64,000 nt of DNA, taken from positions 15,663 to 79,662 of the forward strand of contig UQSB01000002.1 in the NCBI GenBank assembly GCA_900543505.1, read 5' to 3'. The position numbers and the translations under genes were made by a program. A model generated the notes under the pieces. It made no database searches and had not been told where the DNA came from. It saw only the letters and a program-made list of their open reading frames with translations. Shown one piece after another: positions 14,523-62,772 of this stretch (positions within the stretch are counted from its first letter, which is position 1; each line of letters starts with the position of its first letter). Origin of the DNA: an uncultured Collinsella sp. Its GTDB lineage: Bacteria > Actinomycetota > Coriobacteriia > Coriobacteriales > Coriobacteriaceae.

Positions 14523-17300
14523 ATGGCACAGGAATTCACTTTTACCGTTAACGGCGTCGAGCGCACGACGACCCAAAACAAACCGCTGCTGCGCTACCTG
14601 CGCGACGACCTGCATATTCACTCCGCCAAGGACGGCTGCTCCGAGGGCGCGTGCGGTACCTGCACCATCCATGTGGACGGTGCGGCCGTCAAGGCGTGCG
14701 TGCTGACCACCGCTCTTGCCGCCGGCCGTAATATCGTGACCGTCGAGGGCCTGCCCGAGGACGTGCGCGAGGCCTTTGTGTACGCCTTTGGCGCCGTGGG
14801 CGCCGTGCAGTGCGGTTTTTGCATCCCCGGCATGGTCATGGCGGGCGCTGCGCTTATCGCCGAGGACCCCGAGCCCACCGAGGAGCAGATCAAGTACGCC
14901 ATCCGTGGCAACGTCTGCCGCTGCACCGGCTACAAGAAGATCATCGAGGGTATTTCGCTGGCAGCTGCGGTGCTCCGCGGCGAAAAGCAGATCGACGAGG
15001 ACTTGGAGCGCGGCGACGACTACGGTGTGGGCAAGCGTGCCTTCCGTATCGACGTGCGCAAGAAGGTACTCGGCGAGGGCAAGTACCCCGACGACATCGA
15101 CGAGCTCGATCAGCCGGGTCTGACCTATGCCAGCGCCGTGCGCTCCAAGTATCCGCGCGCCCGTGTGCTCTCCATCGATACCTCCAAGGCCGAGGCCCTG
15201 CCCGGTGTGGTGGGCATCCTGCGCGCTGAGGACGTGCCGGTCAACCAGGTCGGCCACCTTATCCAGGATTGGGACGTCATGATCGCGGCGGGCGATATCA
15301 CCCGCTGCGTGGGCGATGCCATCGTGCTGGTGGTTGCCGAGGACGAGGCGACGCTCGAGAAGGCCAAGAAGCTCGTAAAGATTGATTACGAGCCGCTGGA
15401 GCCCGTGCGCAACATTGTCGAGGCCAGGGCTGCCGACGCCCCGCGCCTGCACGACAGTTTCTTTGCCTTTGGCAACACGGTGGAGCTCAAGGACAACGTG
15501 TGCCAGAGCCGTCACGTGACGCGCGGCGACGCCGCCAAGGCGCTGGCAGAGAGCGCGTTCACCGTGACGCAGCGCTTTACCACGCCCTTTACCGAGCATG
15601 CCTTCTTGGAGCCCGAGTGCGCCGTTGCCTTCCCGTACAAGAACGGCGTCAAGGTGCAGTCGACCGACCAGGGTGCCTACGACACGCGCAAAGAGTGTGC
15701 CCACATGTTTGGCTGGGACAACGAGCCCGAGCGCGTGGTCGTCGAGACCATGCTCGTGGGCGGCGGCTTTGGCGGTAAGGAGGACGTTTCGATCCAGCAC
15801 CTGGCCGCGCTTGCTGCCTATAAGCTCCAGCGTCCTGTGAAGTGCAAGCTCACGCGTGCCGAGTCGCTCGCGTTCCATCCCAAGCGTCATGCCATGGACG
15901 GCACCTTTACACTGGGCTGCGATGCCGAAGGCAACTTTACCGGCCTGGATTGCGAGATCAACTTTGATACCGGCGCCTACGCTTCGCTGTGCGGCCCGGT
16001 GCTCGAGCGTGCCTGCACGCATGCCGTCGGTCCCTACAAGTACCAGAACACCGACATCCGCGGCTTCGGCTACTACACTAACAACCCGCCTGCCGGCGCG
16101 TACCGTGGCTTTGGCGTTTGCCAGTCCGAGTTTGCGCTCGAGAGCCTGATCGACCTGCTGGCCGAGAAGGTCGGTTTGGATCCGTGGGAGATTCGCTACC
16201 GCAACGCCATCGAGCCGGGCGAGGTTCTGCCCAACGGCCAGATTGCCGACTGCTCCACGGCGCTTAAGGAGACGCTGCTCGAGGTCAAGGATGCCTACTA
16301 CGCGCATCCCGGACACGCTGGCATTGCCTGCGCCATGAAGAACGCCGGCGTGGGCGTGGGTCTGCCCGATGCCGGCCGCTGCAAGATTCGCGTCGAGGAT
16401 GGCCGCGCCGTGGTCTATGCCGCCACGTCCGACATCGGCCAGGGCTGCAACACGGTCTTTTTGCAGGACGTTGCCGAGGCCTGCGGTCTGCCGCTTCGCT
16501 GCATTGCCAACGGCGAGTGCTCCACCGAGAACGCTCCCGATTCCGGCACCACGTCTGGTTCGCGTCAGACGGTCGTGACCGGCGAGGCCGTGCGCGGTGC
16601 CGCTTTCCTGCTGCGCGACGCCATGGTTGGCATCGAGGCCGGCAAGCCTGCGCCCGCCGCTCCGGTGAGCGCGCATGGCGACGGCGTCAAGATCGAGTAC
16701 GACGACGGTCGCGCCTACCAGCTGCGCACACAGGAACTCGTCGCCGGCCAGGGTATGCATCCTCAGGACCCTGCGGCCACCATCAAGGCGCTCGAGGGAT
16801 GCGAGTTTGGCTACGTGTATCTGGAGCCGACCGACAAGCTGGGCGCCGATGTTCCCAACCCCAAGAGCCACATCTGCTACGGTTTTGCCACACATGTGGT
16901 CATTCTGGATGATGACGGCCGCGTGAGCGAGGTCTATGCCGCGCACGATTCCGGCAAGGTGGTCAACCCTATCTCCATCCAGGGTCAGATCGAAGGCGGC
17001 GTGCTCATGGGTATGGGCTATGCGCTTACCGAGGACTGGCCGCTCAAGGACTGCGTGCCCCAGGCCAGGTACGGCACGCTCGGACTGTTCCGTGCGCCCG
17101 AGATTCCGGATATCCACGCCATTTACGTGGAGAAGGACGAGCTGCTGCCCGTGGCATACGGCGGCAAGGGCATCGGCGAGATCGCAACGATCCCCACGGC
17201 GCCCGCCGTGCAGAACGCCTACTGCGCGTTTGACGGCAGGCTGCGTCCAAATCTGCCCATGGTGGATACGCCCTACAGCCGCGTCCGCAACCGCGGGTAG
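14523..17300 (+). CDS. xdhD: XdhD-type selenium-dependent molybdenum hydroxylase (fused 2Fe-2S plus molybdopterin-binding xanthine dehydrogenase family protein)
   Basis: N-terminal 2Fe-2S cysteine pattern (CSEGACGTC, CGFC, CRCTGY) and a large aldehyde oxidase/xanthine dehydrogenase Mo-binding domain, 925 aa. Confidence 0.8.
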   Translation: MAQEFTFTVNGVERTTTQNKPLLRYLRDDLHIHSAKDGCSEGACGTCTIHVDGAAVKACVLTTALAAGRNIVTVEGLPEDVREAFVYAFGAVGAVQCGFCIPGMVMAGAALIAEDPEPTEEQIKYAIRGNVCRCTGYKKIIEGISLAAAVLRGEKQIDEDLERGDDYGVGKRAFRIDVRKKVLGEGKYPDDIDELDQPGLTYASAVRSKYPRARVLSIDTSKAEALPGVVGILRAEDVPVNQVGHLIQDWDVMIAAGDITRCVGDAIVLVVAEDEATLEKAKKLVKIDYEPLEPVRNIVEARAADAPRLHDSFFAFGNTVELKDNVCQSRHVTRGDAAKALAESAFTVTQRFTTPFTEHAFLEPECAVAFPYKNGVKVQSTDQGAYDTRKECAHMFGWDNEPERVVVETMLVGGGFGGKEDVSIQHLAALAAYKLQRPVKCKLTRAESLAFHPKRHAMDGTFTLGCDAEGNFTGLDCEINFDTGAYASLCGPVLERACTHAVGPYKYQNTDIRGFGYYTNNPPAGAYRGFGVCQSEFALESLIDLLAEKVGLDPWEIRYRNAIEPGEVLPNGQIADCSTALKETLLEVKDAYYAHPGHAGIACAMKNAGVGVGLPDAGRCKIRVEDGRAVVYAATSDIGQGCNTVFLQDVAEACGLPLRCIANGECSTENAPDSGTTSGSRQTVVTGEAVRGAAFLLRDAMVGIEAGKPAPAAPVSAHGDGVKIEYDDGRAYQLRTQELVAGQGMHPQDPAATIKALEGCEFGYVYLEPTDKLGADVPNPKSHICYGFATHVVILDDDGRVSEVYAAHDSGKVVNPISIQGQIEGGVLMGMGYALTEDWPLKDCVPQARYGTLGLFRAPEIPDIHAIYVEKDELLPVAYGGKGIGEIATIPTAPAVQNAYCAFDGRLRPNLPMVDTPYSRVRNRG

Positions 17301-17379
17301 GGTAGGGCGCGGACAGTCATTGCTGACGAGCTGTTCGCGCTCAACATCAACTGCATATGCTGCACCTTTGGCCCCAGCT

Positions 17380-17570
17380 CCATCGCGAGCCGGGGCCTTT
17401 TGTTTGGAGCGGAAACTGTGTCCCGGAATTGCCACTCAGAACGGGACGCGCTTTCCGGATGGCATGCTTGGCGGAAACTACGGCCCAGTTTTTGGCTCCA
17501 GAACGGGGTACATTTTCCGGAACGGTCCACGTGCGGGGGTGTACCGCCCCTTTTCGTGCTCCGCTTGTCG
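17380..17570. repeat. Left array of about 62-bp palindromic repeat units (half-sites GGAAAnnGCGTCCC / GGGAyGCnnTTTCC) ending in a 36-bp motif that is directly repeated at 19255-19290
   Basis: Read directly: ggaaactgtgtcccgg...gggacgcgctttccgg, ggaaactacggccc...ggggtacattttccgg. Confidence 0.6.
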
Positions 17571-17582
17571 GATTACGTTATA

Positions 17583-17643
17583 GCTAGACATATTATAGGA
17601 AGGTATAATATAGCTAGCTATAACGTAAAGGAAGGATGGCCCT
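17583..17643 (+). promoter_or_regulatory. AT-rich promoter region of the ATPase-nuclease gene with a 12-bp-arm palindrome (cgttatagctag...ctagctataacg) and a -10-like GGTATAATAT
   Basis: Direct reading; sharp GC drop relative to flanks. Confidence 0.4.
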
Positions 17644-19035
17644 ATGTTTATCGGAAGAACAGTGGAAATGTCCGAGCTCAATCGACTGTATGGCACGGGC
17701 TCCTTTGAAATGCCTGTGATTTACGGCCGCCGTCGTGTGGGTAAAACGCGCCTTATCACAGAGTTCATCCAAGGCAAGAAGGCTATTTACTTTCAAGCTC
17801 GTCGTACCAATGCGGAGGCAAACCTGCACGGCTTTAGCCAGGCGATACTTGCAGGCTCGGTTGGTGCTGCAGGCGTGTCGTTTCGTAGTTTTGACGAAGC
17901 GTTCGATGCATTGGCCACCATGGCTCGAGCGGAACGTTTGATTGTCGTGATTGACGAGTATCCCTATCTCGCCCAATCGAATCCCGAGATCAGCTCGTTG
18001 CTGCAAGACAAGATTGATCACCTGTACAAAGAGACCAGGCTCATGCTGATTCTATGCGGCTCGTCTCTTTCGTTTATGGAGGAACAGGTATTGGGCTACG
18101 AGAGCCCACTATACGGTAGGCGTACGGCCCAGTTTAAGATCATGCCGCTCGATTTTACGACGACCCTCGGCCTGTGGCAGAGCATGGGTCGCGAAGACGC
18201 TGCGGTTTGCTATGGCATGACGGGCGGCATTCCTGCATATATCGAGAAAGTCGATCCTACCGTATCGCTCAAGGACAACATCAAGCGTCTTTTTCTTACC
18301 CCTACGGGTTATCTCTTTGAAGAGCCGAGTAACCTGCTATTGCAAGAGTGCCGCAATCCCGAGCAATATGATGCGATCGTGCAAGCAATTGCTCAGGGGC
18401 GCTCGAAGATCTCGGAGATTGCGAGCTCTACGGGAATCCCTGCGAGCAACGTAAAGAGCTATGTGGATAAGCTGGCGTCGCTTGGGATTGTCGAGCGCGA
18501 GCTGCCCCTAAACGAGACGAGCAATAAGCGGGCTGTGTATCTGCTGAGCGACCAGATGTTTAGGTTCTGGTACAAGTTTGTGCCGCAGAACATTGGGCTG
18601 ATTCAAAACGATATGGCCGAGATGGCGTATAAGCGCATTGAGCCGCACATATCGGATTACATGGGTACGGTCTTTGAGCTTATATGCAGACAATACGTGT
18701 ACGAACTCGCGCGTGCGGGCCAGCTCGATGTGGTTCCGGCGAGCGTCGGGCGCTGGTGGGGGACGGATAATCGCACGCATACGCAGGAAGAAATCGACTT
18801 GATTGTTGACGATGGCGAGGGCACTGCGCTGTTTGCGGAGTGCAAATGGCGCAATGAACCGGCGGGCGAAGACGTGCTGCAAAAGCTCGTTCATCGAAGC
18901 GAGCTCTTTAGACGGCAACGAAAAAGCTATGCGCTTTTCTCAAAAAGCGGCTTTACGCAGGGATGTCGGGATGCCGCGGAGAGTAGGGGAGACGTCAAGC
19001 TGATCTCGTTTGCCGAGATGTGCGAGCGGAGATAA
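17644..19035 (+). CDS. COG1672-type AAA+ ATPase fused to a DUF234 PD-(D/E)xK nuclease-like C-terminal domain
   Basis: Walker A GRRRVGKT, Walker B LIVVIDEY, winged-helix segment, C-terminal D...EIDLIVDD...AECKWRN (D-ExK) motif; local GC clearly below genome average. Confidence 0.75.
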   Translation: MFIGRTVEMSELNRLYGTGSFEMPVIYGRRRVGKTRLITEFIQGKKAIYFQARRTNAEANLHGFSQAILAGSVGAAGVSFRSFDEAFDALATMARAERLIVVIDEYPYLAQSNPEISSLLQDKIDHLYKETRLMLILCGSSLSFMEEQVLGYESPLYGRRTAQFKIMPLDFTTTLGLWQSMGREDAAVCYGMTGGIPAYIEKVDPTVSLKDNIKRLFLTPTGYLFEEPSNLLLQECRNPEQYDAIVQAIAQGRSKISEIASSTGIPASNVKSYVDKLASLGIVERELPLNETSNKRAVYLLSDQMFRFWYKFVPQNIGLIQNDMAEMAYKRIEPHISDYMGTVFELICRQYVYELARAGQLDVVPASVGRWWGTDNRTHTQEEIDLIVDDGEGTALFAECKWRNEPAGEDVLQKLVHRSELFRRQRKSYALFSKSGFTQGCRDAAESRGDVKLISFAEMCERR

Positions 19036-19049
19036 CCAAGCGCTCTGAT

Positions 19050-19330
19050 GTGATGCTCGGAATGGGACGCGCTTTCCCCTTGCGGCCTTTGGCGGAAAGC
19101 GCGTCCCAGATTATAGCTCCAGAGTGGGATGGCCTTTCCGGATCGGCCCCTCGCGGAAACTGCGTCCCGGATTCGATGCTCAGGACGGGATGCCGTTTCC
19201 GATAGAGGCATGGGGTGGAAAGCCTCCCATTTCTAATGTTCAAGAAATGGGAGGCAGCTCATCGCGAGCTGGGCCTTTTGTTTGGAGCGGAGGCAGCATC
19301 CCAGAATTCGGGCAATCCGGTGGTCAGGGG
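19050..19330. repeat. Right array of about 4 units of the same 62-bp palindromic repeat (gggacgcgctttcc...ggaaagcgcgtccc etc.) plus the terminal direct repeat catcgcgagcygggccttttgtttggagcgga
   Basis: Direct reading; units are individually hairpin-forming. Confidence 0.6.
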
Positions 19331-19369
19331 TTGAGCGAGCGTCGCGCTAAGGATGCCAAGCGTAAAACT

Positions 19370-19450
19370 TTCAATGAACATAGCGTAAAAACTACATCCG
19401 CAACGGCGTAAAAACTACATTGGAAGTAGCGTAAAATCCGCATTGAAAAT
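19370..19450. repeat. Four degenerate tandem copies of a 23-bp unit (rGCGTAAAAACTACAT...)
   Basis: Direct reading. Confidence 0.5.
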
Positions 19451-19474
19451 GGCGTAATTTCGTATATCGCATGA

Positions 19475-19800
19475 TTGCCCGAGCTTGCACACGGCCTTTT
19501 GCGAGCTCTTGCCATGAACGAGAGCCAGGCTGTCACGTACAAGACGCTCATAAAGGACGCCTCGTACGGTGAGGCGGGCCCCGACGAGAGGACCATCGCT
19601 GCGTACCTGGATCTCTTCAACAGGCTCAAGCTGACCGAGGACCTGTGCGGAGTTTTGGCTTGGCTGCCAGGTTGTGGAAGTTGCGCTCGCTGCGCACGGA
19701 GAAATTGTCCATACGGACTCCTTTCATCGATGTTGGCAGGGCCACCGTGCCTCTTGGCCGGTTGGCGTCGGGATCGTGGAGCCAACTCTCTACCCCGACT
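19475..19800 (+). pseudogene. Frameshifted remnant of an AAA_14/DUF4143-family ATPase (C-terminal half only)
   Basis: LLRALAMNESQAVTYKTLIKDA...RTIAAYLDLFNRLKLTE matches the DUF4143 pattern, then continues in another frame (KLRSLRTEKLSIRTPFIDVG, ORF 19645..19923). Confidence 0.4.
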
Positions 19801-19894
19801 CTGGATAAAACGCGCCCGCTCCTTGCGGGCACGATGGAGTCTATCAGCGCGCGCGGATGGCGCTTGATTTCCCAAGTGATTATTCGGCTTTCAT

Positions 19895-20015
19895 CCGGAA
19901 AAGTGTCGAAATCAGCCGTGTAAAAGTACGGAAAAGTGTCGAAATAGGCACCTTAAAACTTCGGAAAAGTGTCAAATTCGATGGGCAAATTATCCGGAAA
20001 AGTGTAGCTGGATGA
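19895..20015. repeat. Four tandem copies of a 32-bp iteron-like unit with core CCGGAAAAGTGTCGAAAT
   Basis: Direct reading; inter-core segments are themselves degenerate copies, so this is not a spacer-containing array. Confidence 0.55.
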
Positions 20016-20075
20016 CAAAACAGCACTTAGAAGCCGGTGCTGGATGCGGGATCCTGCGGCCGCCTTCAGCCCTCG

Positions 20076-21062
20076 CTACTCGTCGTCCCCGTCGTTAGGG
20101 TCGCCCTTGAGGGTGTTGATGTCCAGGTACTGGTTATCGTCCTCTTTTTGTTGGGTCTCCGACTCCGCTTGGGTGGGGCCGCGGAACAGCTGGAATCCCT
20201 CAAACGCAATGACACCGAGCAGGGCAATGATAATGGCGATAAAGGCAACCTTGACTGCCTGCGGAAATTCCGAGAAACGCAGCGCCTTTTCCTCGGCGTA
20301 ATAATCGGCGAAGCGCTCTTCGCCCGTGCTTTTGGTATACGACGGCGCGGACGCGGCCTCCGAGTCATATTCCGGTGCAGGCGTGGCAGCGTACGGATCG
20401 TTGAGATAATCGCTCGATGCGGTGCCATAATCCTCGGTCTCGATGCGACCGGTGCCAGCATAGCCATCGGAATAATCGGAATATGCCGCACCGCCCTCAT
20501 AGTCCGCGGCGCTCGTGTTGGCGGCAAAAAGCGGGTTAACTGGAACATCGAGCGCCGGCATGCCGGTAGAGGTCTCATCCAGATCGGCTGCAGCCCACGA
20601 ATCGTAGGCAACCTGACGGGCAACGGGCTCATCGAGCCTTGCGACTGGAGGCTTGCGTGCCGCAGGAACAGGCAACTGCTGGGCGCTGTACATAACAGTG
20701 CTGTCGGCCGATTTGCCCTGCGTCGCTGCAGCGAGAAATGCCGCCGTCTCGGACGGGTCGCTTGCGGGGCGGGGAGCGGGTGTGGGCGCCGAAGTGGGTG
20801 CGGGCGTAGGCGCGGGCGTCGAAACGGGCGACTGCGCAGGAGTCGGCGCAGATGCGGGCTTAGGCGCAAGTGCGGGGTTGGGGTTTGACGGGCGAGCCCC
20901 GCCGCCCATGAGTTCGTCGGCGGTCCACGGGCGATCATCCATCACGTCGTCAAGGCTCAGCGAAAACAGGTCGTCTTCACCCTCATCGAACATGCGGTGC
21001 ACATGTCCACCAATTGCCGGAATCAATCCGCGACCGGTGCATGATGCCTTGCTCAACGCCAT
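20076..21062 (-). CDS. Pro/Ala-rich, predicted tail-anchored membrane protein (about 270 aa disordered N-terminal region, single C-terminal TM helix)
   Basis: Strong GC3 bias; AAAGGA RBS before the ATG at 21062; TM segment VKVAFIAIIIALLGVIAF. Confidence 0.55.
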   Translation of the reverse strand: MALSKASCTGRGLIPAIGGHVHRMFDEGEDDLFSLSLDDVMDDRPWTADELMGGGARPSNPNPALAPKPASAPTPAQSPVSTPAPTPAPTSAPTPAPRPASDPSETAAFLAAATQGKSADSTVMYSAQQLPVPAARKPPVARLDEPVARQVAYDSWAAADLDETSTGMPALDVPVNPLFAANTSAADYEGGAAYSDYSDGYAGTGRIETEDYGTASSDYLNDPYAATPAPEYDSEAASAPSYTKSTGEERFADYYAEEKALRFSEFPQAVKVAFIAIIIALLGVIAFEGFQLFRGPTQAESETQQKEDDNQYLDINTLKGDPNDGDDE

Positions 21063-21184
21063 TCTGTTCCATCCTTTCGAAATACTAATGACATCGATTA
21101 TATGGAACTTCCCAAGCGGCTCGGTCTTGGATTCGTGCTTTCCAGAACTCGCGCCCAAAAGGGGAGGGCAATCCAGGCGAGTGC

Positions 21185-21838
21185 CTACTTGTCGCCGGCC
21201 GCCGCCTTGGCCTCATTGAGGTAGCTATAGAAGCTGTATTTGGAGATGCCAAAGAACTCACAGGCGCGCTCGCTCGACTTGGAAATGAGGAAGGCGCCGC
21301 GACGGTCGAGGTAGCCAATGGCGCGAATGCGCTCGTCTTTGGTCATAAGGGCCGCGGGCTTGCCCACAAACTGCTCGCACTCGTGCAGCAGGTCCTCGAG
21401 CAGGTCACCGATGTTTTTGGTAATGGGCTCGGGCTCGGTATAGCCCGTGCCGCCGGTGCCGGTAAAGGCGTCGAGCGAACGCTCAAAAGCCTTCATGAGC
21501 GTAATGTCAAAGTTGATGCCCAGAATGCCGACGGGCTTGCCCTCGTCGTTGCGGATAAAGATCGTCGACGATTTGAGCAGCTTACCGTCGGTGGTTTTAG
21601 TGAGGTACGGCTCGCGGTCGTGTACATCGGTGGCGCCCTCGTGCATGGACTCAAACACGATATGGCTGGGACCGTCACCCAGTTTGCGCCCGCTGACGTG
21701 GCCGTTTTCGATCACCACGATGGAGTGGTCCACGTCCTCGGTCTCCAGGTCGTGGACGACGACTTCGCAGTTGGGGCCAAATTGGAGCGCCAGGCCGTGT
21801 GCAAGGCGCTTATAAAACTCAATCTGTGACGGGGTCAT
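21185..21838 (-). CDS. YheO-like PAS-domain plus HTH transcriptional regulator (copy 2), divergent from dpaL
   Basis: Paralog of 6917..7624 (VVHDLETEDVDHSIVVIENGHVSGRKLG); start at MTPSQ. Confidence 0.65.
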   Translation of the reverse strand: MTPSQIEFYKRLAHGLALQFGPNCEVVVHDLETEDVDHSIVVIENGHVSGRKLGDGPSHIVFESMHEGATDVHDREPYLTKTTDGKLLKSSTIFIRNDEGKPVGILGINFDITLMKAFERSLDAFTGTGGTGYTEPEPITKNIGDLLEDLLHECEQFVGKPAALMTKDERIRAIGYLDRRGAFLISKSSERACEFFGISKYSFYSYLNEAKAAAGDK

Positions 21839-22115: not shown

Positions 22116-23330
22116 ATGGCCGATAAGATCCAGTGGGCGGGCAACACGATGCCCAAGAGCGATGACAAGCACTTGGGAATCATGAGTCTCGACCACGTGA
22201 AGAAGGCCCGTGCCTTCCACCAGTCGTTCCCTCAATATACCGTCACCCCGCTTGCCCGCCTGGACGGTCAGGCTGCGCGCCTGGGTCTGTCCAACCTGTG
22301 CGTTAAGGACGAGAGCTATCGCTTTGGCCTCAACGCCTTTAAGGTTCTGGGCGGCTCGTTTGCCATGGCCAACTACATTGCCGACGAGACCGGCAAGGAC
22401 GTTGCCGACTGCACCTTCGATTACCTGACCTCCGACCAGCTTGCCGAGGACTTTGGCCAGGCTACCTTCTTTACCGCTACCGACGGCAACCATGGTCGCG
22501 GCGTGGCATGGGCTGCCAACAAGCTGGGCCAGAAGGCTGTCGTGCACATGCCCAAGGGTTCCACCAAGCCCCGCTTCGATAACATTGCCGCCGAGGGCGC
22601 CACGGTGACCATCGAAGAGGTCAACTACGACGAGTGCGTGCGCATGGCCGCCGCCGAGGCCGATGCCTGCGAGCGCGGCGTCATCGTTCAGGACACCGCC
22701 TGGGAGGGCTACGAGAAGATCCCGTCCTGGATCATGGAGGGCTACGGCACCATGGCTTCCGAGGCTGCCGAGCAGCTGCGCGAGATGGCCATCAACCGCC
22801 CGACGCACGTGTTTGTCCAGGCTGGCGTGGGTTCGCTCGCCGGCGCCGTGGTGGGCTACTTCACCAACCTGTATCCCGATAACCCGCCCACCTTCGTCGT
22901 GGTCGAGTGCGCGCCTGCCGCCTGCCTGTACAAGGGCGCTGCCGCCGGCGACGGCGACCCGCGCATCGTGGACGGCGACATGCCCTCCATCATGGCCGGC
23001 CTGTGCTGCGGCGAGCCCAACATCTTGGGCTGGGATATCCTGCGCAACCACACCACCGCCTTCGTGTCCTGCCCCGACTGGGTCACCGCTCGCGGAATGC
23101 GCACCCTGGGCGCTCCCGAGAAGGGCGACCCGCGCGTCATCTCCGGCGAGTCCGGCGCTGTGACCACCGGCCTGGTCGAGACTCTCATGCTCGATCCCGA
23201 GTACGCCGAGCTCAAGGAACTCATCGGCCTGGACAAGACGAGCTCCGTGCTCTGCTTCTCCACGGAAGGTGACACGGACCCCGACCAGTATCGTCGAATT
23301 GTTTGGGAAGGCGAATATCCCACTTGCTAA
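22116..23330 (+). CDS. dpaL: Diaminopropionate ammonia-lyase (PLP-dependent, YgeX/DpaL)
   Basis: PLP fold-type II motifs (KDESYRFGLNAFKVLGG); AAGGAG RBS; position within the ygeW/ygeX/ygeY set. Confidence 0.8.
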   Translation: MADKIQWAGNTMPKSDDKHLGIMSLDHVKKARAFHQSFPQYTVTPLARLDGQAARLGLSNLCVKDESYRFGLNAFKVLGGSFAMANYIADETGKDVADCTFDYLTSDQLAEDFGQATFFTATDGNHGRGVAWAANKLGQKAVVHMPKGSTKPRFDNIAAEGATVTIEEVNYDECVRMAAAEADACERGVIVQDTAWEGYEKIPSWIMEGYGTMASEAAEQLREMAINRPTHVFVQAGVGSLAGAVVGYFTNLYPDNPPTFVVVECAPAACLYKGAAAGDGDPRIVDGDMPSIMAGLCCGEPNILGWDILRNHTTAFVSCPDWVTARGMRTLGAPEKGDPRVISGESGAVTTGLVETLMLDPEYAELKELIGLDKTSSVLCFSTEGDTDPDQYRRIVWEGEYPTC

Positions 23331-23404
23331 TCGTTGGGGCGGAGTAAATAGGTATCGCTCCGCCACCTCACAGGTAGATTCCTTCGTTTGAAAGGTTATG
23401 AACA

Positions 23405-24790
23405 ATGGCTAAAGAACTCGATTACGACGCTATTAAGGCTGCGGCTGAGTCCCATCGTGCTGATATGACGCGTTTTCTTCGCGCAATGATTAGCCACCCC
23501 TCTGAGTCTTGCGAGGAGGGTGAGGTTGTCGCTTGCATCAAGGCCGAGATGGAGAGCCTTGGCTATGACGAGGTCAAGGTCGACGGCCTGGGCAACGTTA
23601 TGGGCTTTATGGGCGAGGGCGACAAGATCATCGCCATCGACTCCCACATCGACACCGTCGGTATCGGCAACATCGAGAACTGGGATGCCGATCCCTATGA
23701 GGGCTACGAAACCGACGAGATCATCTACGGCCGCGGCGGCTCCGACCAGGAGGGCGGCATGGCTTCTGCTACCTATGCTGCCAAGATGATGAAGGACATG
23801 GGCCTCATCCCCGAGGGCTACAAGATCATGGTCGTCGGCACCGTCCAGGAAGAGGACTGCGACGGCATGTGCTGGCAGTACATCTACAACAAGGACGGCA
23901 TTAAGCCCGAGTTCGTCATTTCCACTGAGCCCACCGACGGCGGCATCTATCGCGGTCACCGCGGCCGCATGGAGATCCGCGTCGACGTTCACGGCACCTC
24001 CTGCCACGGTTCCGCTCCCGACCGCGGCGACAACGCCATCTACAAGATGGCCGACATCATCGCCGACGTCCGCGCCCTCAACAACAACGGCTGCGACGAG
24101 TCGACCGACATCAAGGGCCTCGTCAAGATGCTCGACCCCAAGTACAACCCCGAGCACTTTGAGGACGCCCGCTTCCTGGGCCGCGGCACCTGCACCGTCA
24201 GCCAGATCTTCTACACCAGCCCCAGCCGCTGCGCTGTCGCTGACTCCTGCGCCATCTCCATCGACCGTCGCATGACCGCCGGCGAGACCTGGGAGTCCTG
24301 CCTGGACGAGATCCGCAACCTGCCGGCCGCCAAGAAGTACGGCGACGACGTGAAGGTCTCCATGTACATGTACGACCGTCCGTCCTGGACCGGCGAGGTC
24401 TACGAGACCGAGGCTTACTTCCCCACGTGGATCAACAAGGAGACCGCTCCGCACGTCAAGGCCCTCGTCGACGCCCACAAGGCCATGTTCGGTGACGAGC
24501 GCATCGGCTGCGAGCCCAGCATGGACAAGCGCACCGGCCGTCCGCTGTGCGACAAGTGGACCTTCTCCACGAACTGCGTTTCCATCCAGGGCCGCTATGG
24601 CATCCCCTGCGTTGGCTTTGGCCCGGGTGCCGAGTCTCAGGCTCACGCTCCCAACGAGGTCACCTACAAGGACGACCTGGTCACCGCTGCCGCCATGTAT
24701 GTTGCTGCTTTGAACCTCTACGATCCGAGCCAGGCCGATGGCGACGCTACCGTGTTCCGCGCTGGTCTGACCAACAACAAGATCGACTAG
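23405..24790 (+). CDS. ygeY: YgeY-family M20 peptidase/hydrolase linked to the SDMH system
   Basis: M20 metal-binding motifs ([13 protein letters not shown]...); adjacent to ygeW and dpaL as in E. coli. Confidence 0.75.
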
Positions 24791-24991: not shown

Positions 24992-26194
24992 ATGGACGCC
25001 AAGTTTACCGAGCTCGTCGAGCAGCTGAACGGCCTCGATTTTAAGGGCATGTACGGCAGCGACTTCCTGCACACCTGGGATAAGACCACCGATGAGCTCA
25101 AGGCTCTCTACATCGTTGCCGACGCCCTGCGCGAGCTGCGTGAGAACAACGTTTCGTCCAAGATCTTCGACTCGGGCCTGGCCGTCTCCCTGTTCCGCGA
25201 CAACTCCACCCGTACGCGCTTCTCCTTCTCTAAGGCCGCCAACCTGCTCGGCCTCGAGCTGCAGGACCTGGACGAGAAGAAGTCCCAGATCGCTCACGGC
25301 GAGACCGTCCGCGAGACCGCTACCATGATCTCCTTCATGGCCGACGTCATCGGCATCCGCGACGACATGTACATCGGCAAGGGCGACGCCTACATGGCCG
25401 AGGTCTCCGAGTCTGTCCAGCAGGCCTACGAGGACGGCGTTCTGGATCACCGTCCCACGCTCATCTCCCTGCAGTCCGACTCCGATCACCCCACGCAGTC
25501 CTCTGCCGACATGCTCTACCTCATCAACGAGTTTGGCGGTCTTGAGAACCTCAAGGGCAAGAAGGTTGCCGTCACCTGGGCCTATTCGCCCTCTTACGGC
25601 AAGCCGCTGTCCTGCCCGCAGTCGCTGATCAGCCTGCTGCCCCGCTTTGGCATGGACGTCACCCTGGCCCACCCCGAGGGCTACGACCTCATGCCCGAGG
25701 TCGTCGAGCGCGCCAAGGGCTATGCCGCCGAGTCCGGCACCACCTTTAAGCAGGTCAACACCATGGCCGAGGCCTTCGAGGGCGCCGACATCGTGATCCC
25801 CAAGAGCTGGGCTCCGTTTGCCGCCATGGAGAAGCGCACCAACCTGTACGCCGAGGGCGACGACGCCGGCATCGCCGCGCTCGAGAAGGAGCTGCTCGCC
25901 CAGAACGCCACCCATCAGGACTGGTGCTCCACGACCGAGCTCATGGAGAAGACTGCCAACGGTCAGGACACCATCTTTATGCACCCGCTGCCTGCCGACA
26001 TCTCCGGTGTCTCCTGCGAGCACGGCGAGGTCAACGCCGACGTCTTCGACATGCACCGCGTGGGCATGTACAAGGAGGCCAGCTACAAGCCGTACGCTAT
26101 CGCAGCCATGATGTTCCTGCAGAAGGTTGCCGATCCCGCCGCTACCCTCAAGGCCCTCGACGAGCGCAACACCGCCCGTTGGTTCCAGGCCTAA
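24992..26194 (+). CDS. ygeW: YgeW-type knotted carbamoyltransferase
   Basis: Transcarbamylase STRTR motif (NSTRTRFSF) and HPLP motif (FMHPLP); about 400 aa like YgeW; start at MDAKF with a GGAAAGGA RBS. Confidence 0.8.
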   Translation: MDAKFTELVEQLNGLDFKGMYGSDFLHTWDKTTDELKALYIVADALRELRENNVSSKIFDSGLAVSLFRDNSTRTRFSFSKAANLLGLELQDLDEKKSQIAHGETVRETATMISFMADVIGIRDDMYIGKGDAYMAEVSESVQQAYEDGVLDHRPTLISLQSDSDHPTQSSADMLYLINEFGGLENLKGKKVAVTWAYSPSYGKPLSCPQSLISLLPRFGMDVTLAHPEGYDLMPEVVERAKGYAAESGTTFKQVNTMAEAFEGADIVIPKSWAPFAAMEKRTNLYAEGDDAGIAALEKELLAQNATHQDWCSTTELMEKTANGQDTIFMHPLPADISGVSCEHGEVNADVFDMHRVGMYKEASYKPYAIAAMMFLQKVADPAATLKALDERNTARWFQA

Positions 26195-26344
26195 AGCCGG
26201 GTTGAGGTAAGCCATGTAAAGGGGGCGCTCTGCCAACCGGCGGGGTGCCCCTTTTTTGCATCGCGGGCGTGCGGGATAAGCGCCTTCGATGTGGATGCCC
26301 GCGGCGCGAGTTATGGGTACGATGGTTTCAGGGGAGGTATCACC

Positions 26345-62586: not shown

Positions 62587-62772
62587 ATGTGGGGGAGTGT
62601 TCGGATGAAGTTGATATTTAAGGTCCAGCTCGTGTTGTGCCGAAAAGACCGTGAACCTTTTGTGGGACGCTCGGCGCCGTGGTACCATAGCCGAGTTTGT
62701 TGTCTTGGTCGGAAACCAAGACGCCTTATGCGCTGATCGGTAACCAGCGCCTGACCAATAAGGAGTCCTACC

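What the first reader, a model, noticed from the sequence alone, without database searches (positions are those of the whole stretch)
17301..21184. SDMH cluster is bisected by about 3.9 kb of lower-GC accessory DNA
Between the xdhD stop (17300) and the second YheO-like regulator (21185) lies a block with several accessory features. It holds an AT-richer ATPase-nuclease gene, a DUF4143 ATPase pseudogene, three tandem-repeat families and a Pro/Ala-rich membrane protein. None of these is expected in the conserved cluster. The arrangement looks like an insertion hotspot or a decayed mobile element that separated the two halves of the catabolic locus.
Basis: seen in the sequence. Interest (0 to 1): 0.55.

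Follow-up and report, generated by a model that had tools for sequence, protein, structure and literature searches.

The report
Strain-variable defence-gene hotspot beside xdhD
The low-GC block after xdhD is the shrunken local version of a strain-variable hotspot for phage-defence genes, lying between two modules of the Collinsella aerofaciens uric-acid/purine degradation locus; this is a known kind of genome feature.

Summary
The organism is Collinsella aerofaciens, and the flanks are true SDMH/2,8-dioxopurine-pathway genes.

Conspecific contigs, many with a 100% identical XdhD protein, carry at least 13 different gene sets between xdhD and the Pro/Ala membrane gene. Two alleles are nearly empty (about 0.6 and 1.1 kb). 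The others hold type I R-M, AbiJ-like, AbiE, a Mokosh-like helicase, a DNA methylase, IS elements, and the candidate systems PDC-S27 and PDC-S01 plus DEDDh exonucleases.

The window allele is a deletion derivative of a larger island. It keeps one intact PDC-S27-like ATPase-nuclease and a 58-codon PDC-S01 relic. It also keeps an orphaned SAM-riboswitch-like leader with 20 codons of its gene.

Three corrections:
- The variable part is about 17414-19925, not the full 3.9 kb. The membrane gene is fixed in every allele seen.
- The 61-nt repeats are a genus-wide REP/BIME-like dispersed repeat.
- In sister genera the two cluster "halves" are not linked, so nothing shows that an ancestral operon was split.

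No integrase, tRNA, phage or true plasmid signature is present. The kind is known and interest is modest.

The parts
14523..17300 (+). xdhD (selenium-dependent xanthine dehydrogenase family); conserved left flank
   Evidence: TIGR03311 at 1133 bits against a cut-off of 830; Pfam MoCoBD_1/2, Fer2_2 and Ald_Xan_dh_C; protein identical in contigs that carry different cargo.
17370..17405 (+). xdhD intrinsic-terminator-like hairpin followed by TTTTGTTT
   Evidence: DNA fold of -9.9 kcal/mol with stem at 17370-17397. Retained in the near-empty allele L028, where homology to the window ends at 17413.
17409..17519 (+). Two REP/BIME-like 49-nt palindromic units (U1, U2; period 62 nt); left breakpoint zone of the hotspot
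   Evidence: Homology with other alleles ends at 17413, at 17452-17462, or at 17518-17528.
17573..17628 (.). Inverted repeat (25-nt arms, 92% complementary) just upstream of the ATPase RBS and start codon; it contains a TATAAT. A possible operator or promoter element (inferred).
   Evidence: I2; DNA fold z-score -8.5. It travels with the ATPase gene in other alleles.
17644..19035 (+). Intact ATPase_2-wHTH-DUF234 gene (463 aa), a PADLOC candidate PDC-S27-like defence gene
   Evidence: Pfam. PADLOC PDLC04984 at E 3.3e-62, covering residues 2-428. Walker A at 28-35, Walker B at 100-105, and D...E399-C-K401. GC3 0.627. The identical protein is indexed in 249 blocks of the collection, and all 22 contigs read carry it at this site.
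19056..19201 (+). One REP-like half unit plus two full units (U3, U4)
   Evidence: The segment 19074-19340 is absent in L021-type alleles and present in L006.
19222..19308 (+). A 13-bp-stem hairpin followed by an imperfect (about 85%) second copy of the xdhD terminator and the start of a unit
   Evidence: (D7, D8). The terminator motif occurs only at xdhD loci.
19359..19457 (+). 23-nt tandem repeat x4.3; the native upstream region of the PDC-S01 (DUF4143) gene
   Evidence: It aligns with the sequence directly upstream of the intact 431-aa gene in L021, L024 and L027.
19476..19651 (+). Internal relic of a DUF4143/PDC-S01 ATPase gene (about residues 217-274 of 431), bounded by two deletion junctions (19475/76 and 19651/52)
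   Evidence: The intact gene in L021 matches PADLOC PDC-S01 at E 4e-61.
19653..19712 (-). First 20 codons of 'orf140', a Collinsella-specific hypothetical gene truncated by the 5.6-kb deletion
   Evidence: tblastn 20/20 identical; alignment A1; 1412 homologues found, the 120 listed all about 90% identical.
19721..19811 (-). SAM-riboswitch-like aptamer (Rfam RF00162, clan CL00012) with P4 reduced to 2 nt; orphaned in this allele
   Evidence: 45.1 bits against a gathering score of 44.4; E 3e-8 and 4.5e-7 over the whole window. The same element lies upstream of orf140 in L008, L021, L024, L025, L029 and L030.
19811..19833 (-). GC-rich hairpin (9 pairs) whose T-run is also the 5' strand of riboswitch P1. 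Likely the terminator of the YheO2-membrane transcript, or part of the orf140 leader (inferred).
19893..20005 (.). 33-nt tandem repeat (CGGAAAAGTGT...), 3-4 copies; copy number varies between strains and the repeat is absent in some
   Evidence: A promoter-like site on the minus strand at 20018-19989 overlaps it.
20076..21062 (-). Pro/Ala-rich, C-terminally anchored membrane protein (328 aa). A constant right flank of the hotspot, not cargo.
   Evidence: Present next to YheO2 in every allele whose right side was seen. No Pfam, NCBIfam or PADLOC hit. Of more than 1000 homologues, the 120 listed are 85-96% identical and 304-354 aa long. GC3 0.669.
21185..21838 (-). Second YheO-like regulator (217 aa as called elsewhere)
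   Evidence: PAS_6 plus HTH_22. The identical protein is indexed in 1010 blocks of the collection.

Best explanation
Window 17414-19925 is the local allele of a chromosomal hotspot for accessory, mostly anti-phage, genes in Collinsella aerofaciens. The hotspot lies in the convergent gap between two transcription units. One is the xdhD operon (YheO1-permease-ssnA-ygfK-fer4-xdhD). The other is the YheO2-membrane-protein unit, which precedes the dpaL-ygeY-ygeW-... operon.

Shown: strains with the same flanks carry very different cargo. The window allele descends from a larger island of the type xdhD / PDC-S27 / PDC-S01 / DEDDh exonuclease / three unknown genes / riboswitch-orf140 / membrane gene. 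Two deletions produced it. A 660-bp deletion removed the start and AAA domain of PDC-S01. A 5.6-kb deletion removed everything from mid-PDC-S01 to codon 20 of orf140.

Inferred: cargo turns over mainly by homologous recombination in the conserved flanks after DNA uptake. Internal reshuffling comes from recombination between REP/BIME-like repeat arrays that separate gene modules, and from microhomology deletions.

Inferred function: the one intact gene is a AAA+ ATPase fused to a winged helix and a PD-(D/E)xK nuclease. It most likely acts as a single-gene, nucleic-acid-targeting defence or abortive-infection protein. The site is tolerated because it lies after the xdhD terminator and disrupts no catabolic gene.
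For: Polymorphism with conserved flanks:
- Contigs with an identical XdhD protein show the window type, or ATPase + RNase_T + type I R-M, or orf332 + DUF4143 + RNase_T + Abi_C + HsdM/S, or RNase_T only.
- Contigs with an identical YheO2 add PDC-S37/Mokosh-like, Dcm-type methylase, integrase + type I R-M and SIMPL alleles. They also include two near-empty sites, L028 (343 bp of unrelated sequence) and L029 (a repeat array only).
- A RefSeq-annotated strain carries IS3 + IS21 + AbiEi/AbiEii at the site.

Defence content: PADLOC and Pfam hits.

Discordant flank identity: L008 is 99.1% identical to the window on the left but 93.9% on the right. L011 is 94.9% on the left and 96.8% on the right.

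Deletion junctions, resolved to the base: CATG microhomology at 19475/76 and a clean junction at 19651/52.

Repeat-mediated change: the window and L011 types differ by a 2-kb orf332 module, with the crossover inside the shared units 17409-17518.

Composition: GC3 of the ATPase is 0.627, against 0.79-0.89 in the core genes.

ATPase features: Walker A and B motifs and D...ExK are intact, and PDC-S27 matches at E 3e-62.
Against: - No allele exchange was observed directly; recombination is inferred from mosaic identity.
- PDC-S27 and PDC-S01 are computational candidates with validation still pending (PMC12988326), so a defence role for the window's only intact gene is unproven.
- The membrane gene also has lowered GC3 (0.669), so composition does not cleanly separate cargo from flank.
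- An imperfect 50-nt direct repeat flanking the ATPase block (17381-17430 / 19260-19308) is not explained by simple flank recombination.
Confidence: 0.85

Rival explanations
1. The block is the decayed remnant of a discrete integrative mobile element (prophage, ICE/IME or transposon) that inserted once after xdhD.
For: An imperfect direct repeat of about 50 nt (about 85% identical) brackets the ATPase block (D7/D8). Other alleles contain a tyrosine integrase (L005, L025), an rve fragment (L028) and IS3/IS21 (L154). Composition is low-GC.
Against: The window interval has no integrase or transposase ORF and the window has no tRNA. No relative was confirmed on viral contigs. The only hit in the plasmid collection is a chromosome-like C. 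aerofaciens record. The integrases in other alleles lie next to hsdS genes, an arrangement I know from phase-variable type I R-M systems (own knowledge, not tested here). The many unrelated cargo sets share no common ends other than the host flanks. The repeat copy is the host's own xdhD terminator.
Confidence: 0.07
2. The intervening genes are native, functional parts of the purine/uric-acid catabolic cluster, for example a regulator or a DNA-binding ATPase controlling the operons.
For: The ATPase carries a winged-helix domain (weak HTH_IclR/TrmB hits). It sits between two regulated operons. The window-type allele is common.
Against: The gene is absent in many conspecific strains that keep the whole pathway (L006, L008, L028, L029, L030, L154). 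It is absent at this position in sister genera. Its codon usage is foreign. It matches a defence-candidate profile.
Confidence: 0.03
3. The 61-62-nt periodic repeats are a functional array specific to this locus (CRISPR-like, or attC-like cassette sites) that drives cassette capture.
For: The period is regular. Arrays of 1 to about 10 units lie at module junctions, and homology breakpoints fall inside them.
Against: The units are only 61-80% alike, and the whole period is related sequence rather than unique spacers. At least 120 Collinsella loci carry the units, and only a handful of those lie at this xdhD hotspot (L064 and L073 sit next to a 29%-identical paralogue). The rest are next to ordinary genes such as patatin, sulfatase, ThiE, GH5 and a Na/H exchanger. 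About 14 places occur in a 0.9-Mb C. aerofaciens record. No cas or integron-integrase gene was seen at the locus. Paired positions show no covariation.
Confidence: 0.05

Closest known systems
Defence islands / variable defence hotspots at fixed chromosomal sites
   Same: The flanks are conserved core genes. Content differs between strains and includes R-M, Abi and candidate systems. Composition is atypical. Empty and occupied alleles coexist.
   Different: The site lies inside a catabolic super-locus in a Gram-positive gut commensal. No integrase or tRNA marks the site. REP-like arrays lie between modules.
PADLOC candidate PDC-S27 (ATPase_2 + DUF234), with its neighbour PDC-S01 (AAA_14 + DUF4143)
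   Same: The profile match is near full length (E 3e-62). The AAA+ motifs are intact and there is a C-terminal PD-(D/E)xK-type motif. The literature describes both candidates as ATPase fused to a PD-(D/E)xK domain (PMC12988326).
   Different: No member has published experimental validation in the library searched. Here PDC-S27 recurs next to PDC-S01 and a DEDDh exonuclease, which hints at a module rather than isolated single genes. This was not tested.
REP/BIME elements of Enterobacteria and Pseudomonas
   Same: The units are imperfect palindromes, extragenic and dispersed at many loci. They cluster in arrays of both orientations, often after gene 3' ends.
   Different: The unit is longer (49 nt, period 61-62 nt). 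It was found only in Collinsella. No RAYT-type transposase was identified. I found no description of these arrays in the library searched.
SAM-I / SAM-I-IV riboswitches (Rfam clan CL00012)
   Same: The RF00162 score is above the gathering threshold. P1-P3 and the core junctions align. The element sits 9 nt from the RBS and start codon of a sense-strand gene, and the P1 3' strand overlaps the Shine-Dalgarno sequence.
   Different: P4 is nearly absent. The score is only 0.7 bits above threshold. The regulated gene (orf140) has no link to Met/Cys/SAM metabolism. In this window the gene is deleted.
E. coli ygeV-ygfT / C. sporogenes uric-acid (2,8-dioxopurine pathway) gene cluster
   Same: xdhD, ygfK, ssnA, dpaL(ygeX), ygeY, ygeW, hyuA, yqeB, yqeC and a mocA-like gene are all present.
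   Different: The locus is built from two modules, each with its own YheO regulator. These modules are unlinked in sister genera. Carbamate kinase is missing from the cluster in this strain.

Membership tests
Variable defence hotspot / defence island | Presence/absence and content polymorphism among conspecific genomes between conserved flanks | tested here: met
   At least 13 architectures and 2 near-empty alleles.
Variable defence hotspot / defence island | Cargo enriched in recognised defence genes | tested here: met
   Type I R-M (HsdR/M/S), Abi_C/AbiJ, AbiEi/Eii, PDC-S37/MkoC-like helicase, DNA methylase, PDC-S27, PDC-S01.
Variable defence hotspot / defence island | Demonstrated protection against phage | not testable with these tools
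   Needs phage challenge experiments.
PDC-S27 (PADLOC candidate) | Near full-length match to the PDC-S27 profile | tested here: met
   PDLC04984 at E 3.3e-62, protein residues 2-428 against profile positions 4-440 of 474.
PDC-S27 (PADLOC candidate) | AAA+ ATPase domain with intact Walker A and Walker B | tested here: met
   PF01637 at 4.7e-28; GRRRVGKT at 28-35 and IVVIDE at 100-105.
PDC-S27 (PADLOC candidate) | C-terminal PD-(D/E)xK-type nuclease domain | tested here: inconclusive
   PF03008 (DUF234) at 1.5e-23, weak Mrr_cat at 5.5e-4, and a D...E399-C-K401 motif. No structure model was made. The only PDB sequence hit is the ATPase part of 2qen.
PDC-S27 (PADLOC candidate) | Anti-phage activity | not testable with these tools
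Integrative mobile element (prophage, ICE/IME, transposon) | Recombinase or transposase gene within the element | tested here: not met
   None among the ORFs of 17301-21184. Some occur in other alleles.
Integrative mobile element (prophage, ICE/IME, transposon) | Terminal att or inverted repeats bounding the whole insert, or a tRNA target | tested here: not met
   No tRNA in the window. The only long direct repeat brackets the ATPase block alone, is about 85% identical, and is a copy of the xdhD terminator.
Integrative mobile element (prophage, ICE/IME, transposon) | Relatives on phage or plasmid sequences | tested here: not met
   No confirmed relative on viral contigs. The only hit in the plasmid collection is a chromosome-like C. 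aerofaciens record.
REP/BIME-type dispersed repeats (the 61-nt units) | Imperfect palindromic unit | tested here: met
   Consensus gCGGAAActgcgTCCCgGAAT..g.gctCagAatGGGAtGC..TTTCCg from 198 distinct units. Stem positions can pair in 72-100% of units except position 8/43 (37%), with no covariation. DNA folds of -7 to -14 kcal/mol.
REP/BIME-type dispersed repeats (the 61-nt units) | Extragenic and dispersed at many loci of one lineage | tested here: met
Nearly all record titles name Collinsella or Coriobacteriaceae; three are labelled 'uncultured bacterium' or Ruminococcus. There are at least 25 different neighbour families and 14 places in a 0.9-Mb record.
REP/BIME-type dispersed repeats (the 61-nt units) | Associated RAYT (Y1) transposase | not tested
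   Only the 10 commonest neighbour families were scanned and none was a transposase. Whole genomes were not available.
CRISPR array | Near-identical repeats separated by unique spacers, usually with cas genes | tested here: not met
   Units are 61-80% alike, the whole period is conserved sequence, and no cas genes appear in the flanks.
SAM riboswitch (RF00162, clan CL00012) | Covariance-model score at or above Rfam gathering score | tested here: met
   45.1 bits against 44.4, E 3e-8; 45.1-45.6 bits in six other alleles.
SAM riboswitch (RF00162, clan CL00012) | Lies in the 5' leader of a sense-strand gene | tested here: met
   It ends 9 nt before the ATG of orf140, with AAAGGAG overlapping P1. 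In the window only 20 codons remain.
SAM riboswitch (RF00162, clan CL00012) | Regulated gene belongs to Met/Cys/SAM metabolism or transport | tested here: not met
   orf140 has no Pfam or PADLOC hit. It is Collinsella-only among the homologues listed. The AF2 model has pLDDT 64 and no fold match with E below 0.25.
SAM riboswitch (RF00162, clan CL00012) | Compensatory base changes and SAM binding | not testable with these tools
   All copies recovered are nearly identical. Binding needs in-line probing or ITC.
SDMH / 2,8-dioxopurine uric-acid cluster (host locus) | Equivalog-level matches for xdhD, ygfK and dpaL | tested here: met
   TIGR03311 1133>830, TIGR03315 1287>835, TIGR03528 611>532. 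RefSeq names in L154 agree.

The most novel reading that the evidence does not exclude
In intact alleles, the right edge of the hotspot carries a SAM-clan riboswitch whose P1 helix overlaps the Shine-Dalgarno sequence of orf140. orf140 is a Collinsella-only gene and in some strains is translationally coupled to large unknown genes (orf604, orf411). The most novel reading not excluded is that this is a SAM-gated defence module. It would stay silent at normal SAM levels and be translated when SAM collapses, for example when a phage SAM lyase attacks the neighbouring R-M systems. That would make a riboswitch the sensor of an anti-anti-restriction guard. A secondary novel reading is that PDC-S27 + PDC-S01 + DEDDh exonuclease work together as one multi-gene system. 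In this window the riboswitch is only an orphaned relic.
Probability: 0.05. Interest if true: 0.75.

Novelty: new member of a known kind. Interest (0 to 1): 0.4.

Why it matters
C. aerofaciens is a prevalent human gut species, and this locus is its anaerobic uric-acid/purine degradation pathway, which is relevant to host urate balance.

The "bisecting" DNA is a strain-variable defence hotspot placed after a terminator. So annotation and pathway-completeness calls should treat the two modules as intact in all of these strains.

The hotspot is also a compact natural catalogue for gut Actinomycetota. Its boundaries are base-resolved and it has empty alleles. It repeatedly holds the unvalidated candidates PDC-S27, PDC-S01 and a DEDDh exonuclease next to classical R-M and Abi systems, which makes them easy to test.

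Two by-products may merit a short follow-up:
- A Collinsella-wide REP/BIME-like repeat family that marks rearrangement points.
- An atypical SAM-riboswitch-like leader on an unknown gene.

Tried and rejected
- **CRISPR-like or attC-like reading of the 61-62-nt repeats.** Rejected. The units are degenerate and genus-wide, and elsewhere they lie next to ordinary genes.
- **Structured-RNA reading of the units.** Stem positions pair through conserved R/Y composition, but covariation is at shuffle level.
- **'orf169' in L006.** Its tblastn hits all fall on the repeat arrays, so it is a spurious ORF translated across them.
- **A recurrent right breakpoint at window 19652.** It first looked like a recombination site shared by many alleles. 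The alignment showed those alleles continue into orf140 among themselves, so 19652 is simply the window's own deletion end.
- **Mobile-element tests.** The tRNA scan, viral-contig scan and plasmid search were all negative.
- **Whether the terminator-like part of the 50-nt direct repeat belongs to the dispersed repeat.** It does not. It occurs only at xdhD loci. Its duplication remains unexplained.
- **Function of orf140.** Pfam and PADLOC gave nothing. The homologues listed are all Collinsella at about 90% identity. The AF2 model has pLDDT 64 and the Foldseek PDB search gave no hit with E below 0.25. Dead end.
- **Function of cargo genes orf332, orf411, orf604, the 549-aa ORF and others.** No significant family hits.
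- **Literature search for 'DUF234 defense'.** It returned only T6SS papers, through prefix matching to DUF2345.
- **One regex script timed out** and was replaced by blastn-short.
- **The first pattern for the units** used the wrong loop length and found nothing.

Full report
**1. What is in the sequence**

The interval 17301-21184 is compositionally distinct. GC in 500-nt windows is 0.51-0.57 across 17250-20250, against 0.62-0.69 in the flanks. In 1-kb windows, 17101-20300 is the longest low-GC run in the 64 kb and holds the minimum, 0.520 (mean 0.607, sd 0.035). Shorter low-GC runs occur at both YheO regulators and at three other places, so GC alone is only suggestive.

- xdhD (14523-17300) matches TIGR03311 at 1133 bits (cut-off 830).
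- ygfK matches TIGR03315 and dpaL matches TIGR03528, both above their cut-offs.
- The second regulator (21185-21838, minus strand) has PAS_6 plus HTH_22.

Inside the interval:
- An intact 463-aa ATPase_2 + winged-helix + DUF234 gene lies at 17644-19035. Its GC3 is 0.627, against 0.79-0.89 for the catabolic genes.
- A 25-nt-arm inverted repeat (17573-17628) sits just upstream of the ATPase start codon.
- Four 49-nt palindromic units with a 61-62-nt period lie on both sides of the ATPase gene.
- A 23-nt x4.3 tandem repeat is at 19359-19457 and a 33-nt x3-4 repeat at 19893-20005.
- A DUF4143 fragment and a 328-aa Pro/Ala-rich membrane ORF (20076-21062, minus strand) complete the list.

**2. Organism and host locus**

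The closest XdhD cluster (98% identity) is named [quoted passage not shown]. A RefSeq-annotated C. aerofaciens record shows the same gene order: ssnA, ygfK, xdh..., dpaL, YgeY family, ygeW, hydA, yqeC, yqeB.

This is the gut-bacterial anaerobic uric-acid cluster, recently assigned to the 2,8-dioxopurine pathway (bioRxiv 10.1101/2025.04.24.650524).

**3.

I looked up contigs that encode exactly the window's XdhD, ATPase or YheO2 protein. These are mostly human-gut metagenome contigs, plus two NCBI genome assemblies. Between identical or near-identical flanks I found at least 13 architectures:

1. Window type: PDC-S27-like ATPase only (L001-4, 9, 10, 12, 14, 16, 17, 19, 20, 23).
2. Window type plus a 332-aa gene (L011, 13, 15, 18).
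3. ATPase + intact DUF4143 (431 aa) + RNase_T + orf411 + orf604 + orf250 (L021; L143 in part).
4. ATPase + DUF4143 + RNase_T + DNA methylase + a 549-aa gene + orf140 (L024).
5. orf332 + ATPase + DUF4143 + SIMPL + small ORFs (L027).
6. ATPase (459-aa allele) + RNase_T + a 1971-aa helicase-nuclease (L022, L026).
7. ATPase + RNase_T + type I R-M with an integrase and hsdS genes (L005). L025, seen only from its right side, carries an integrase plus type I R-M block of this kind.
8. ATPase + RNase_T + orf411 + an EcoEI-type R-M (L007).
9. orf332 + DUF4143 fragment + RNase_T + Abi_C + HsdM/S (L006).
10. An RNase_T-like gene only (L008).
11. HTH + small ORFs + orf140 + a different DUF4143 gene (L030, in the complete genome AP031421.1).
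12. IS3 + IS21 + AbiEi/AbiEii + orf140 + an ATP-binding protein (L154).
13. Two near-empty alleles. L029 has only a 7-unit repeat array and an orf140 stub (1076 bp between xdhD and the membrane gene). L028 has 343 bp of unrelated sequence with an rve fragment (607 bp in all).

PADLOC profiles classify the cargo:

| Cargo gene | PADLOC match |
|---|---|
| ATPase | PDC-S27 (E 3e-62) |
| DUF4143 genes | PDC-S01 (4e-61; 3e-167) |
| RNase_T genes | DEDDh / PDC-S48-like (weak) |
| 1971-aa protein | PDC-S37 / MkoC-like (2e-68) |
| Abi_C gene | AbiJ |

This is a hotspot rich in defence genes.

**4. True limits of the variable segment**

On the left, homology to other alleles ends at 17413 (L028), at 17452-17462 (L005-8), or at 17518-17528 (L011 type). 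All of these lie just after the xdhD terminator hairpin (17370-17405) and inside the first two repeat units.

On the right, the shortest shared flank starts at about 19926-19956 (L027, L028).

The membrane gene is present next to YheO2 in every allele whose right side was seen, including a GTDB species representative (L129, 95% identity) and the RefSeq strain. It has no family match. Of more than 1000 homologues, the 120 listed are 85-96% identical and 304-354 aa long. It is therefore a fixed, fast-evolving flank gene rather than cargo, although its GC3 (0.669) is also lower than that of the enzymes.

The variable part in this window is thus about 2.5 kb (17414-19925), not 3.9 kb.

**5. How the window allele arose**

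I aligned the window to the L021-type island.
- **Junction 1** (19475/76) removes 660 bp. This takes out the start codon and AAA_14 domain of the DUF4143 gene. The junction shows CATG microhomology.
- **Junction 2** (19651/52) removes 5,626 bp. This runs from mid-DUF4143 through RNase_T, orf411 and orf604 to codon 20 of the next gene.

What remains is a 58-codon internal DUF4143 relic (19478-19651, residues 217 to about 274). The gene's native upstream 23-nt repeats also remain.

Two further differences involve the repeat units.
- The window carries a 267-bp segment (19074-19340) that L021 lacks and L006 has. It holds two units, a hairpin and an imperfect copy of the xdhD terminator.
- The window and L011 types differ by a 2-kb orf332 module, with the crossover inside shared units (17409-17518 aligns to both L011 7653-7762 and L011 9766-9876).

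Flank identities are discordant. L008 is 99.1% identical on the left and 93.9% on the right. L011 is 94.9% on the left and 96.8% on the right. This is what recombinational mosaicism would produce.

**6. The 61-nt repeats**

An HMM built from the four window units finds arrays of 1 to about 10 units in other alleles. The arrays lie between gene modules and contain runs of both orientations.

A scan of one genome per GTDB species with the unit pattern reached its 120-locus limit. Nearly all record titles name Collinsella or Coriobacteriaceae; three are labelled "uncultured bacterium" or Ruminococcus. Only L097, L121, L129 and L143 lie at this xdhD hotspot, and L064 and L073 sit next to a 29%-identical xdhD paralogue. 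The remaining loci fall into at least 25 neighbour contexts with ordinary genes, including patatin, sulfatase, thiamine-phosphate synthase, GH5 and a Na/H exchanger. A 0.9-Mb C. aerofaciens record holds about 14 places.

The consensus of 198 distinct units is gCGGAAActgcgTCCCgGAAT..g.gctCagAatGGGAtGC..TTTCCg. It is an imperfect palindrome. All stem positions but one (8/43, 37%) can pair in 72-100% of units, but covariation is at shuffle level.

These are REP/BIME-like dispersed repeats of Collinsella. They are not CRISPR and not a locus-specific cassette site. I found no description of them in the library searched.

The terminator-like half of the 50-nt direct repeat that flanks the ATPase block occurs only at xdhD loci. 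Its duplication is unexplained.

**7. A missed feature: a SAM-riboswitch-like leader**

Rfam finds RF00162 (SAM, clan CL00012) at 19811-19721 on the minus strand. The score is 45.1 bits against a gathering score of 44.4, with E 3e-8. The match spans the full model, but P4 is reduced to 2 nt. The same element scores 45.1-45.6 bits in L008, L021, L024, L025, L029 and L030.

In those alleles it ends 9 nt before the start of a 140-aa gene. The sequence AAAGGAG overlaps the P1 3' strand, which would fit translational control (inferred).

That gene, orf140, has 1412 homologues; the 120 listed are all about 90% identical and the two that are named come from Collinsella. It has no family hit. The AF2 model has pLDDT 64 and no fold match.

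In the window only its first 20 codons survive, so the riboswitch is orphaned. The call is borderline, and the downstream gene is not a Met/SAM gene. I treat it as a probable but unverified SAM-I/IV-like riboswitch.

**8. Outgroups**

In Olsenella uli, Tractidigestivibacter and a further relative (XdhD 79-81% identical), the module YheO-...-ssnA-ygfK-fer4-xdhD is conserved. There it is followed by an ABC/Bmp nucleoside-type transporter, and no yheO2-dpaL half lies within 9 kb.

So the two "halves" are separate modules, each with its own regulator, that happen to abut in Collinsella. The hotspot sits at their convergent junction. There is no evidence that an ancestral contiguous operon was split.

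**9. Mechanism and rivals**

*Best explanation (confidence 0.85).* This is a permissive chromosomal hotspot, downstream of a terminator, for defence and accessory genes.
- Turnover most likely occurs by homologous recombination in the conserved flanks (inferred from mosaic identity and from many cargos sharing identical flanks).
- Internal change comes from recombination between repeat arrays and from microhomology deletions (shown at base level for this allele).

The surviving gene has intact Walker A and B motifs and a D...E399-C-K401 motif. It matches PDC-S27, which the literature describes as an ATPase fused to a PD-(D/E)xK domain, with validation still pending for most PDCs (PMC12988326). 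My estimate that it really is a defence gene is about 0.5-0.6.

*Rivals.*
- **Decayed integrative element (0.07).** No recombinase in the interval, no tRNA in the window, no viral relative, and no true plasmid match.
- **Native part of the pathway (0.03).** The gene is absent in many strains that keep the whole pathway.
- **Locus-specific repeat machinery (0.05).** The repeats are genus-wide.

**10. Verdict**

It is wrong about the extent of the accessory block, about a mobile element, and about an ancestral split.

The kind is known: a defence hotspot that includes PADLOC candidates. The value lies in a cleanly delimited hotspot, with empty alleles, in an abundant gut commensal. Two side observations add some interest: the Collinsella REP-like arrays and an atypical SAM-riboswitch-like leader on an unknown gene.

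Noticed in passing
window 19721-19811 (- strand); also L008 11731-11821, L021 11883-11973, L024 11882-11972, L025 12031-12121, L029 12034-12124, L030 13381-13471: SAM-riboswitch-like aptamer (RF00162, 45.1 bits against a gathering score of 44.4; P4 nearly absent). It lies directly upstream of a Collinsella-only 140-aa gene of unknown function. In the window the gene is cut to 20 codons, leaving an orphan riboswitch.
   Followed up: partly
window 17409-17519 and 19056-19201; arrays in L006, L011, L029 and at least 120 Collinsella loci (L031-L150): A Collinsella-wide family of 49-nt imperfect palindromes in 61-62-nt-period arrays (REP/BIME-like). There are about 14 places per 0.9 Mb in C. aerofaciens. 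I found no description of them in the searched literature, and no RAYT transposase was identified.
   Followed up: partly
window 26194-26291 (between ygeW and the NTP_transf_3 gene), compared with L021 4680-5630, L022, L025 and L026: A carbamate kinase (AA_kinase, 316 aa) gene lies between ygeW and the mocA-like gene in some conspecific strains but is missing here. This fits the published remark that C. aerofaciens ATCC 25986 has carbamate kinase elsewhere on the chromosome (10.1101/2025.04.24.650524).
   Followed up: no
window 23330-23405 (dpaL-ygeY spacer), compared with L001 18809-19047: The dpaL-ygeY spacer is 75 bp here but about 238 bp in other strains. The called YgeY length also varies (434, 441 or 461 aa). 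The extra DNA contains none of the 61-nt units.
   Followed up: no
window 19893-20005; L008, L022, L025, L027-L029 against L021, L024, L030: The 33-nt repeat (CGGAAAAGTGT...) varies from 1 to 4 copies between strains. The whole block of about 220 nt is absent in L021 and L024 and replaced in L030. Its core resembles the CGGAAA end of the 61-nt units. A promoter-like site on the minus strand overlaps it.
   Followed up: partly
window 17381-17430 and 19260-19308: An imperfect (about 85%) 50-nt direct repeat brackets the ATPase block. The second copy is a duplicate of the xdhD terminator plus the start of a unit. How it arose is unexplained.
   Followed up: partly
window 62730-62765 (+): Rfam L31-Coriobacteria ribosomal-protein leader (RF03128, 35.1 bits against a gathering score of 33). 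This is consistent with the taxonomic assignment.
   Followed up: no
L027 710-2557 and L028 701-2548, compared with L021 1-1563: The yqeB-like (264 aa) and XdhC/CoxI (347 aa) genes are called as one 615-aa fused ORF in some strains.
   Followed up: no
L005 13062-15273, L007, L021, L022, L024, L026, L143: The PDC-S27-like ATPase is repeatedly followed by a DEDDh (RNase_T/KapD-like) exonuclease, with or without PDC-S01 between them. This forms a semi-conserved left-end module of the hotspot, so the genes might act together.
   Followed up: no
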